Shown here one piece after another: positions 54,801 through 57,800 of a stretch of 64,000 bases of DNA. Each line of letters starts with the position of its first letter. The stretch's first letter is position 1. The DNA is from Escherichia coli (GTDB taxonomy: Bacteria > Pseudomonadota > Gammaproteobacteria > Enterobacterales > Enterobacteriaceae): assembly GCF_044647545.1 (NCBI RefSeq), contig NZ_CP172818.1, one strand, 5' to 3'. A program made the position numbers.

Positions 54801-57800
54801 CCGGGCGATCTGGTCGGTGTCGGCTGCATTGTCGACAGTTGTAAACATTGCGAAGAGTGTGAAGACGGGTTGGAAAACTACTGTGATCACATGACCGGCA
54901 CCTATAACTCGCCGACGCCGGACGAACCGGGCCATACTCTGGGCGGCTACTCACAACAGATCGTCGTTCATGAGCGATATGTTCTGCGTATTCGTCACCC
55001 GCAAGAGCAGCTGGCGGCGGTGGCTCCTTTGTTGTGTGCAGGGATCACCACGTATTCGCCGCTACGTCACTGGCAGGCCGGGCCGGGTAAAAAAGTGGGC
55101 GTGGTCGGCATCGGCGGTCTGGGACATATGGGGATTAAGCTGGCCCACGCGATGGGGGCACATGTGGTGGCATTTACCACTTCTGAGGCAAAACGCGAAG
55201 CGGCAAAAGCCCTGGGGGCCGATGAAGTTGTTAACTCACGCAATGCCGATGAGATGGCGGCTCATCTGAAGAGTTTCGATTTCATTTTGAATACAGTAGC
55301 TGCGCCACATAATCTCGACGATTTTACCACCTTGCTGAAGCGTGATGGCACCATGACGCTGGTTGGTGCGCCTGCGACACCGCATAAATCGCCGGAAGTT
55401 TTCAACCTGATCATGAAACGCCGTGCGATAGCCGGTTCTATGATTGGCGGCATTCCAGAAACTCAGGAGATGCTCGATTTTTGCGCCGAACATGGCATCG
55501 TGGCTGATATAGAGATGATTCGGGCCGATCAAATTAATGAAGCCTATGAGCGAATGCTGCGCGGTGATGTGAAATATCGTTTTGTTATCGATAATCGCAC
55601 ACTAACAGACTGAAAAAATTAATAAATACCCTGTGGTTTAACATATTAACTTCGTTCTCCACTTAACTTTTTAGTTAAGGAGAGCGAAATAATATCAAAG
55701 TAGCAGTAAAACCTATAACGTAAATTTAAATTGTTAAATTAACGCCCTCCAGTACACAATACTTCACACGTTAGTTATGAGCGATTTCTGATAGTGCCTG
55801 GTTTAATCAGAGCTTTATTATCTGCGACGTTTATTTTTATTTAGAGATCGCGATGATATCATTAAAAGCTCCGCACAATAATTTGATGCCATATACGCAA
55901 CAAAGCATACTTAATACGGTTAAAAACAATCAGTTACCAGAGGATATCAAAAGCGCCTGGTTTCCTGTGTCGATATATTCAAGGTTTTGATTAAACAATA
56001 TTATGATTATCCTTATGATTGTCGTGATGATTTAGTCGATGACGACAAACTCATTCATCTCATGGCTGCCGTACGAGACTGTGAGTGGTCAGACGATAAC
56101 GCACTCACCATAAATGTGCAGTTTAATGATTTCCCTGGATTTTATGACTGGATGGATTACCCTGATCACCCGGTTAGGGTTACTTCATACTTGAAAATCA
56201 AAAAGGGACAGTTTGGGTATATGACCAGGATGATGCGTTTCTTGATATTAAAGCAAACGTGCAGGCTGGACGCTTTACCGGGCTTAAGAAATTAGTGCAG
56301 TTTATCGATTCAGTGCGAACAGATTGCAAATGTATTCTTCTTGAATACCATATGCCTTTGCTGAGAATTTTCCCTAAAGGGAAAGAGTGTATGCATGTGG
56401 AAAAATGGCTTCGCGAAATGTCGTCTATTCCGGAGACAGACGCGCCCATTAAGCAGGCGCTTGCGCATGGATTATTATTACACTTAAAAAATATCTACCC
56501 TGTTTTCCTGAATCACTGGTGATGTTATTGCTCTCTGTTCTGGACGTAAAAACATACAGAGATGATGCGCGATTAAATGAATGGATATCTAATAGAGTGC
56601 AGGAATTAGGTGACAGATATTATCCTGTAAATAAGCACGTTAAAATCCGCTACACTCTTTAGTTCAGAAAGGGTTCCACCTGCAAGTTGTTATTCCACCT
56701 GAGAGTGAATCGCAATGCAGGTAATCATTTCATCTGTATATCTGTATGCCAACTGGCATTCCATCTCTTTTTTCGCCGATATTTTGTGTGATCGGCGACA
56801 CTTCGCTTAAAAAAGCACCAGTAGTGGTTTCGCAGCCATGCGGTGTATAAAAAATGATCTCATGCAGATGTTTTGTGAATGTGTTGGTTGACATTCATAT
56901 GAAAAAAATCATAATTCCATCATGTTTGTGTGGGGTCTTTTCTGTATCTTACGCATCGCACTCAAGCCTGACAGAAAATATGCTGTAAGGCTCATATAAA
57001 AAACGCCATTAGCTCATCAGGAAGAGCAGACGACAACCAGGATTGTTGTATGGTACGGGGTTCGAGGCCTCGATGGCGGTCCAACTTTCAAAACTCTTCT
57101 GAATCAGATCCCCTTATTATCATCCCTGCAAAGTGGAACATTGCCATTGTTTGGCTATTCAGGATGGGGCAGACCAATGAAAAAAGCCCACACAGGGGAG
57201 AGTGGGCTGAAATGGGAAGCTAAAGACTCAAGTAAACTTATCGGAAATAAGGACCACGCATCAGGGGCTATCATCGCCGATGGCCGTGATTCGGCAAATC
57301 AGGTTGATTACGTAGAGAGTAAATTATCTGCTCACCGCTGCGTCACCCCTTCGTAAATCAGGCGTAGCGCGAATACACCAATAATTGCACCAATAACCCG
57401 ACTGGCAACGCGTTGCATACGCCCATAAGCACGACGCACAGCGGGCAAAGAAAACGCCTGACTAAGAAAAACTCGCCAGATAATTGATGCGAGCACAATC
57501 CCCGCCCAGGCCATTAAACGTGCCCATGTTGGTGTTTCGGCATTTAATGTTACTGAGAAAATACTGATAAAAAATAAAACGGTTTGCGGGTTAGAGAGAT
57601 CGGTAATTAATCCGCGGCGAAAAAAGACATACCAGGGGGCGCTAATCGGTTGTTGTAGTGTGCTCATTTGCGGTGTTGACTGGCGGCGCATGCTGCACCA
57701 CGCAAACCATAAGAGATAAGCGCCGCCGACGATTCTGATAAGCGAAAAAATCTCCTCACACTGCGTAATTAGCGTTGCAAGACCAAACAAACCCAACCCG

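What the first reader, a model, noticed from the sequence alone, without database searches (positions are those of the whole stretch)
55853..56661. yahL split into several frames
Same pattern as the yahD-yahJ block: an ~270-codon gene readable only by switching frames at least twice, although yahK immediately upstream is intact.
Basis: seen in the sequence. Interest (0 to 1): 0.2.

Follow-up and report, generated by a model that had tools for sequence, protein, structure and literature searches.

The report
yahL broken by likely sequencing errors
The E. coli gene yahL really is split across three reading frames in this sequence, but the three small deletions responsible occur in no other genome and sit in a stretch full of obvious sequence-quality defects, so this is most likely an assembly error and not biology.

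Summary
yahL (window 55853-56662, + strand) is 810 nt long against 816 nt in K-12. It can be read only as four ORF pieces in frames 0, 2, 1 and 0. Three lesions cause this: -1 nt at 55954/55955, a complex -4 nt with four substitutions at 56177-56185, and -1 nt (T5 to T4) at 56502. Outside the junctions the encoded protein is 100% K-12 YahL. yahK upstream is base-for-base identical to K-12.

None of the three lesions occurs in about 4,000 yahL-bearing complete E. coli genomes. They belong to patches (47037-50997, 51874-54220, 55655-57263, about 60977-64000) where changes private to this sequence run at about 1%. In coding sequence 46974-62468 the private changes are 142 substitutions to 48 indels, against 503 to 1 for natural K-12/MS6198 differences there. 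These patches alternate with perfectly clean stretches whose edges ignore gene boundaries.

The same window holds plain junk: A/C-rich noise with an A27 run inside fdeC (26460-28224), and C17 and A11 runs that overwrite the prpB stop codon.

Best explanation: patchy low-accuracy sequence in the source assembly (confidence about 0.85). The main rival is a real multi-hit pseudogene (about 0.1). Interest is very low.

The parts
55853..55990 (+). yahL piece 1. Native ATG; aa 1-34 match K-12 YahL, followed by an out-of-frame tail (AWFPVSIYSRF*).
55954..55955 (+). Lesion 1: 1-nt deletion plus an adjacent C>G change (K-12 GCTCCCTGG, window GC-GCCTGG). Shifts frame 0 to frame 2.
   Evidence: Private: the best match of a 61-nt probe in 3,874 genomes is 96.8%.
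55987..56295 (+). yahL piece 2. The in-frame part matches K-12 aa 36-108, followed by an out-of-frame tail.
56177..56185 (+). Lesion 2: a complex change of four substitutions plus a 4-nt deletion (K-12 TTAAGTTTGTTTTTCACATAC, window TTAGGGTTACTTCATAC). Shifts frame 2 to frame 1.
   Evidence: Private: the best match of a 66-nt probe in 4,001 genomes is 90.0%. No exact match in GTDB species representatives.
56259..56522 (+). yahL piece 3. Frame 1 carries K-12 aa 114-220; the listed ORF starts at an internal GTG.
56499..56502 (+). Lesion 3: T5 in K-12 shortened to T4. Shifts frame 1 back to frame 0.
   Evidence: Private: all 4,040 matching records fall in the 95-99% band, best 98.5%, none at 99% or above.
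56519..56662 (+). yahL piece 4. K-12 aa 221-271 and the native TAG stop.
55840..55845 (+). 3-nt deletion (AAG) about 10 nt upstream of the yahL ATG, in the ribosome-binding region. Part of the same dirty patch.
54221..55654 (+). Clean patch holding the yahK upstream region, intact yahK (54564-55613) and the first 41 nt after it. No difference from K-12.
   Evidence: P(0 events) is about 2.5e-8 at the dirty-patch rate.
55655..57263 (+). Dirty patch covering yahL, the yahL-yahM spacer and yahM (57073-57315). It has 8 deletion events, no insertions, and 8 substitutions, 6 of which touch an indel. The background is otherwise K-12-identical.
57264..60976 (.). Clean patch: the end of yahM, yahN, yahO, prpR and the start of prpB. 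No change private to this sequence; all K-12/MS6198 variable sites carry the K-12 base apart from 4 MS6198-type sites in 60500-60976.

Best explanation
The yahL reading frame is broken by errors in the deposited sequence, not by mutations in the bacterium. The source is an NCBI record with a 4,499,902-bp contig. It alternates between stretches of perfect accuracy and stretches of roughly 1% error, and in two places much worse. yahL lies in one low-accuracy stretch (55655-57263). There three miscalled sites remove 1, 4 and 1 bases and shift the frame 0 to 2 to 1 to 0. The real strain most likely carries an ordinary intact K-12-type yahL. What is shown: the lesions, their absence elsewhere, the abnormal indel:substitution ratio, the patchiness and the junk sequence nearby. 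What is inferred: that the cause is technical, for example single-read or poorly polished long-read sequence used to close gaps, possibly with reference-guided filling. No reads are available to confirm this.
For: (1) The lesions are private. Over 55600-56900 the best of 5,426 complete E. coli genomes is 98.9% identical, and 1,311 reference nt align to 1,301 window nt. F' plasmids that carry the region give 98.8%. Probes across each lesion find no match at 99% or above in about 3,870-4,040 yahL-bearing genomes. Gene fragments from neighbouring broken genes occur on exactly one contig among about 15 billion proteins.
(2) The mutation spectrum is abnormal. In coding sequence 46974-62468, changes private to the window run 142 substitutions to 48 indels, against 503 to 1 for natural K-12/MS6198 differences in the same genes. 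In the K-12-like dirty segments the ratio is 38 to 30 in 5,570 nt. Several private substitutions are adjacent-base swaps (GC>CG, CA>AC, GA>AG) or touch an indel.
(3) The flanks are perfect. 54221-55654 is identical to K-12 and 57264-60976 has no window-private change, including synonymous and intergenic sites. P(0 events) at the dirty-patch rate is 2.5e-8 and 2e-20.
(4) Patch edges ignore genes. The clean patch 50998-51873 starts inside the already broken yahG and ends 25 nt into yahI (P = 2e-5).
(5) The same window contains overt junk. 26460-28224 inside fdeC is A/C-rich noise with an A27 run. Its best match in any genome is 77.5% over 58% of its length, with up to 45 gap openings in 384 nt, yet its flanks are 100% identical to MS6198-like strains. 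C17 and A11 runs at 61235-61287 overwrite the prpB stop codon.
(6) Outside the three junctions the encoded YahL is 100% identical to K-12.
Against: No reads or quality values are available, so the error is inferred and not observed. yahL is dispensable enough to be frameshifted naturally in other E. coli, at other sites (P0001, P0002, P0005, P0015, P0017, P0018), so a true pseudogene is not implausible in principle. The genes that stay intact inside or beside the dirty zone (yahK, yahN, yahO, prpR) are whole genes, as purifying selection would also predict. All 8 indels in the yahL-yahM patch are deletions, which fits the natural deletion bias as well as consensus errors. I could not identify the accession or the sequencing platform.
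Confidence: 0.85

Rival explanations
1. yahL is a genuine multi-hit pseudogene. The strain lost selection on yahD-yahJ, yahL, yahM and prpBCD, and these genes accumulated real indels, while yahK, yahN, yahO and prpR stayed under selection.
For: Other natural frameshift alleles of yahL exist, and truncated YahL pieces are common in E. coli and Shigella sonnei records. The intact genes in the zone are whole genes. The indels are biased towards deletions.
Against: None of the three lesions is seen in about 4,000 genomes. An indel:substitution ratio near 1:1 compares with 1:503 for natural variation in the same genes. There are no changes at synonymous or intergenic sites in 5.1 kb of K-12-like flanks. 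A clean patch starts inside the already dead yahG, where selection cannot act. Undeniable junk sequence lies in the same window.
Confidence: 0.1
2. A real, localised, indel-prone mutational event hit several kilobase-scale tracts of this chromosome region. Candidates are error-prone repair or recombination synthesis, or laboratory mutagenesis of cloned or PCR-derived fragments that were then re-integrated.
For: The lesions cluster in kb-scale tracts with sharp edges. The first dirty tract starts at about 47000, where the sequence switches from MS6198-type to K-12-type.
Against: No known in vivo process yields about 0.5% indels in non-repeat contexts together with adjacent-base swaps. The poly-A27, C17 and A/C-noise segments cannot be products of such a process and point to a technical cause.
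Confidence: 0.03
3. yahL is expressed through programmed ribosomal frameshifting or another recoding mechanism.
For: Only the fact that the pieces abut and together cover the whole protein.
Against: Orthologues in thousands of genomes are annotated as single yahL genes (protein YahL), and K-12, MS6198, HS-01 and REL606 carry an uninterrupted 816-nt gene. The shifts are caused by private deletions. No X XXY YYZ slippery heptamer is present at any junction (read directly from the sequence). Three independent shifts would be needed.
Confidence: 0.01

Closest known systems
yahL (b0326) of E. coli K-12 MG1655, 271-aa protein YahL (WP_001301260.1), function unknown
   Same: Same locus between yahK and yahM. 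The DNA is identical apart from three lesions and their adjacent substitutions. The amino-acid sequence is 100% identical in the four in-frame pieces.
   Different: 810 nt instead of 816 nt. The frame is interrupted three times, and no full-length product can be translated as written.
Natural frameshift alleles of yahL in other E. coli (for example the 148-aa and 137-aa products P0002 and P0001, with 81 and 45 member sequences)
   Same: They enter the same alternative frame in the same part of the gene and end at the same stop (tail ...LKIKKGQFGYMTRMMRFLILKQ.CRLDALPGLRN).
   Different: Their shift sites differ (VKFVFHI|LKIKK and VKFVFAY|LKIKK, against the window's VRVTSY|LKIKK). They carry a single lesion and recur in many independent assemblies. 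The window's three lesions occur nowhere else.
Frameshift artefacts of under-polished or gap-filled genome assemblies (the class NCBI flags as 'many frameshifted proteins'; from general knowledge)
   Same: Private indels at about 0.5% in coding sequence, clustered in patches, alongside low-complexity noise and homopolymer blow-ups.
   Different: Most of the window (1-25500 and 28225-47000) is flawless, so the problem is local and not genome-wide. The platform and assembly method are unknown.

Membership tests
yahL orthologue (E. coli protein YahL) | Sequence homology to K-12 YahL over its full length, at the syntenic position between yahK and yahM | tested here: met
   The four pieces tile aa 1-34, 36-108, 114-220 and 221-271 at 100% identity. 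The order yahK-yahL-yahM-yahN is kept.
yahL orthologue (E. coli protein YahL) | A single uninterrupted reading frame of about 271 codons | tested here: not met
   Three frame switches; the longest ORF piece is 102 aa.
Genuine bacterial pseudogene (relaxed selection) | The lesions are reproducible in independent assemblies or relatives | tested here: not met
   No match at 99% or above to any of the three lesion sites in about 3,870-4,040 genomes. No exact hit in GTDB representatives. None in the F' plasmids.
Genuine bacterial pseudogene (relaxed selection) | A mutation spectrum like neutral divergence (substitutions far outnumber indels) and comparable divergence at neighbouring neutral sites | tested here: not met
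   Private changes run 38 substitutions to 30 indels in the K-12-like dirty segments, against 503 to 1 for natural variation. There are no changes in 5.1 kb of flanks.
Genuine bacterial pseudogene (relaxed selection) | The distribution of lesions follows gene boundaries: dead genes are hit throughout and live genes are spared | tested here: inconclusive
   yahK, yahN, yahO and prpR are spared as whole genes. However, the last 430 nt of the broken yahG, plus yahH, are also spotless.
Programmed ribosomal frameshift gene | The frameshift is conserved among orthologues, with a slippery site at the junction | tested here: not met
   The four orthologues examined in detail are single-frame, and thousands more are annotated as yahL without a frameshift flag in the listed rows. 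The junction sequences show no X XXY YYZ heptamer.
Sequence or assembly error patch | Private, indel-rich differences in patches unrelated to gene structure, accompanied by other technical signatures | tested here: met
   (spectrum and patchiness). (noise segment in fdeC, A27, C17 and A11 runs).
Sequence or assembly error patch | Low read depth or quality, or disagreement between reads and consensus, at the lesion sites | not testable with these tools
   No reads, quality values or accession are available. Only 'NCBI, contig of 4,499,902 bp' could be recovered.

The most novel reading that the evidence does not exclude
The lesions are real and record a localised, indel-prone mutational process, such as error-prone synthesis along recombination tracts. 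That process would have peppered several kb-scale tracts (47.0-51.0, 51.9-54.2, 55.7-57.3 and 61-64 kb) of a mosaic K-12-like/ST167-like chromosome and left the intervening tracts untouched.
Probability: 0.03. Interest if true: 0.5.

Novelty: not a real feature. Interest (0 to 1): 0.03.

Why it matters
It matters only as quality control. Anyone annotating this record would call yahL a pseudogene, along with yahD-yahJ, yahM and prpB-prpD, and might infer gene decay in this strain. The evidence says those calls should not be trusted until the region is re-sequenced. If the lesions were real, yahL would be one more dispensable, function-unknown gene lost in one strain, which is unremarkable because other natural frameshift alleles of yahL already exist.

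Tried and rejected
1. Identifying the source genome. Exact protein look-ups showed that fragments of neighbouring broken genes exist on a single NCBI contig of 4,499,902 bp. The look-up of encoding contigs had no record for them or for the yahL pieces. The yahL pieces themselves are not in the protein collection. Paper searches for the contig length returned nothing relevant.
2. K-12 x B hybrid (HB101-like) origin. Rejected: E. coli B REL606 is K-12-like across the bet-ykg region, whereas the window is MS6198-like there.
3. HS-01 or BS-04 (small 4.5-Mb genomes that were top hits) as siblings. HS-01 is simply K-12-like with intact genes.
4. Mixed-strain consensus artefact. Private events are not significantly closer to K-12/MS6198 variable sites than random positions (P = 0.14 and 0.32). 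This mechanism is therefore not supported, though not excluded.
5. Homopolymer-only errors (typical of 454 or nanopore, or of a mismatch-repair-deficient mutator). Rejected as the sole cause, because most indels are not in homopolymers.
6. Programmed frameshifting. Rejected (see rival explanations).
7. Pfam assignment for YahL. Only sub-threshold hits were found, so no functional inference is possible.

Full report
**Observation.** Between 55853 and 56662 on the + strand the window has four short ORFs: 55853-55990, 55987-56295, 56259-56522 and 56519-56662. Translated in the three forward frames, they tile the 271-aa K-12 protein YahL as aa 1-34 (frame 0), 36-108 (frame 2), 114-220 (frame 1) and 221-271 (frame 0). 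Identity is 100% outside the junctions. The locus is 810 nt long, against 816 nt in K-12.

Base-level alignment to MG1655 shows three causal lesions:
- GCTCCC>GC-GCC at 55954/55955.
- TTAAGTTTGTTTTTCACATAC>TTAGGGTTACTTCATAC at 56177-56185, which is four substitutions plus -4 nt.
- T5>T4 at 56502.

yahK (54564-55613) is intact, and 54221-55654 does not differ from K-12 at a single base. There are three frame switches, and the true end is 56662.

**Are the lesions seen anywhere else?** No.
- Over 55600-56900 the best of 5,426 complete RefSeq E. coli genomes is 98.9% identical, and all top hits align 1,311 nt to the window's 1,301 nt.
- F' plasmids that carry this chromosomal segment give 98.8%.
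- Probes of 61-66 nt centred on each lesion find no record at 99% or above among 3,874, 4,001 and 4,038 yahL-bearing genomes. The best matches are 96.8%, 90.0% and 98.5%.
- An exact scan of the GTDB species-representative genomes for the lesion-2 string found nothing.
- A search of 5.8 billion protein clusters did find frameshifted YahL products that share the same out-of-frame tail (P0001, P0002, P0005 and others). Their shift junctions differ (VKFVFHI|LKIKK or VKFVFAY|LKIKK, against VRVTSY|LKIKK here), so they are independent natural alleles and not the same event.

**Context.** The window is colinear with the K-12 argF-prpD region but is a mosaic.
- 1-13000 is K-12-identical apart from an IS1 variant.
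- 21620-47000 is identical to ST167-type strains such as MS6198, apart from the defective fdeC stretch at about 25500-28224 and a handful of single differences.
- 47000-52000 and 54200-60500 are K-12-type.
- 52000-54200 and 60500-64000 carry a third allele.

Changes found in neither K-12 nor MS6198 are confined to patches at 47037-50997, 51874-54220, 55655-57263 and about 60977-64000. yahL lies in the third patch. That patch has eight deletion events and eight substitutions, six of which touch an indel, on an otherwise K-12-identical background. It also breaks yahM and removes AAG from the yahL ribosome-binding region.

**Why I read this as error and not decay.**
1. Spectrum. In coding sequence between 46974 and 62468 the natural K-12/MS6198 differences are 503 substitutions and 1 indel. 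The window-private differences are 142 substitutions and 48 indels. In the K-12-like dirty segments they are 38 and 30 in 5,570 nt. Most indels are not in homopolymers. Several private 'substitutions' are adjacent-base swaps such as GC>CG, CA>AC and GA>AG.
2. Flanks. 54221-55654 is identical to K-12 and 57264-60976 has no window-private change, including synonymous and intergenic sites. At the dirty-patch rate the probability of zero events is 2.5e-8 and 2e-20. Neutral decay of yahL should have left some trace at neighbouring neutral sites.
3. Patch edges ignore genes. The clean patch 50998-51873 starts inside yahG, which already carries seven private indels upstream, and ends 25 nt into yahI (P = 2e-5). 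Selection cannot protect the 3' end of a dead gene.
4. Overt junk in the same window. Segment 26460-28224 lies inside fdeC, and its flanks are 100% identical to MS6198-like strains. It is about 1.2 kb too short and has no ORF of 120 aa or more between 26407 and 27993. It matches fdeC at only 76-94%, with up to 45 gap openings in 384 nt, and its best match in any genome is 77.5% over 58% of its length. It contains A/C-rich noise and an A27 run. At 61235-61287 a C17 run replaces the ATAAA that holds the prpB stop codon, and ACAAAT is blown up to an A11 run. These cannot be biology, and they show that the record contains stretches of very low accuracy.
5. Single source. Fragments of the neighbouring broken genes (yahJ, fdrA, prpB, prpC, prpD) exist in a 15-billion-protein collection on exactly one contig, an NCBI record of 4,499,902 bp.

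**What argues the other way.** I have no reads, so the error is inferred. yahL is evidently dispensable and is frameshifted naturally elsewhere. The genes spared in the zone are whole genes. The yahL-yahM indels are all deletions, as natural bias would also give. I therefore keep about 10% for a real multi-hit pseudogene and a few per cent for an exotic real, localised mutational process. Programmed frameshifting is excluded: K-12, MS6198, HS-01 and REL606 carry an uninterrupted yahL, thousands more genomes annotate a single yahL gene, the shifts are caused by private deletions, and no slippery heptamer is present.

**Mechanism.** As written, the DNA cannot yield YahL, and the longest translatable piece is 102 aa. 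Under the favoured explanation the strain has an ordinary intact K-12-type yahL. In that case the three 'frameshifts' were introduced when a low-coverage or poorly polished stretch, of single-read or raw long-read quality, was built into the consensus. The platform could not be determined. A test for mixed-strain consensus artefacts was not significant, and the errors are not restricted to homopolymers.

**Comparison with what is known.** The locus is the yahL orthologue by synteny and sequence but fails the intact-frame criterion. YahL has no Pfam family, only sub-threshold hits, and no known function. The closest real phenomenon is the set of natural single-lesion yahL frameshift alleles. 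The closest technical phenomenon is the frameshift load of under-polished assemblies.

**Verdict.** The feature is most likely not real, and interest is very low (0.03). The decisive test is read mapping or PCR with Sanger sequencing of 55600-57400.

Noticed in passing
window 26460-28224: A segment inside fdeC (eaeH) that looks like raw-read noise. It has A/C-rich low-complexity runs, an A27 run at 28121-28147, C10 and A10 runs, and no long ORF. Its best match in 5,426 genomes is 77.5% over 58% of its length, and it is about 1.2 kb shorter than fdeC in MS6198. Both flanks are 100% identical to MS6198-like strains.
   Followed up: yes
window 61235-61287: A C17 run replaces the ATAAA that contains the prpB stop codon, producing a 318-aa 'extended' PrpB ORF (60348-61304). 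An A11 run replaces ACAAAT just upstream of prpC. Both are homopolymer blow-ups relative to MS6198.
   Followed up: yes
window 46974-54186: yahD, yahE, fdrA (yahF), yahG, yahI and yahJ each carry 4-8 private indels. The 876-nt stretch 50998-51873 (3' end of yahG, yahH, first 25 nt of yahI) has none.
   Followed up: partly
window 57073-57315: yahM is also frameshifted: -1 at 57085 and -2 plus a substitution at 57261-57263. Two further 1-nt deletions lie in the yahL-yahM spacer (56786 and 56997/57003).
   Followed up: partly
window 61301-64000: prpC and prpD are broken into several ORFs by private indels (61876, 61935, 61994, 62187, 62250, 62865, 63146, 63742 and others), on a third-allele background that differs from both K-12 and MS6198.
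   Followed up: partly
window 1-64000: The chromosome is a mosaic. 1-13000 is K-12-identical and includes CP4-6 prophage genes and argF, which otherwise co-occur over this span only in K-12 derivatives. 21620-47000 is identical to ST167-like strains (MS6198), apart from the defective fdeC stretch. Beyond 47000 it is K-12-type again. No complete genome carries the 13-kb junction. This could be a natural recombinant, a laboratory hybrid or transconjugant, or a reference-guided or chimeric assembly.
   Followed up: partly
window 1001-2000: The IS1 copy next to argF differs from K-12's IS1B by 30 substitutions and no indels, while everything around it is K-12-identical. It is a different IS1 variant at the same site.
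   Followed up: no
window 24346 (against L004 2727-9032): MS6198 carries a 6.3-kb insert here (flavin oxidoreductase, alpha/beta hydrolase, two LysR regulators, two aldo/keto reductases). The window and K-12 both lack it.
   Followed up: no
proteins P0001-P0020: yahL has several independent natural frameshift alleles in public E. coli assemblies. Examples are 148-aa and 137-aa products with 81 and 45 member sequences, and 168-aa and 176-aa products with 218 and 127. This suggests the gene is often dispensable.
   Followed up: partly
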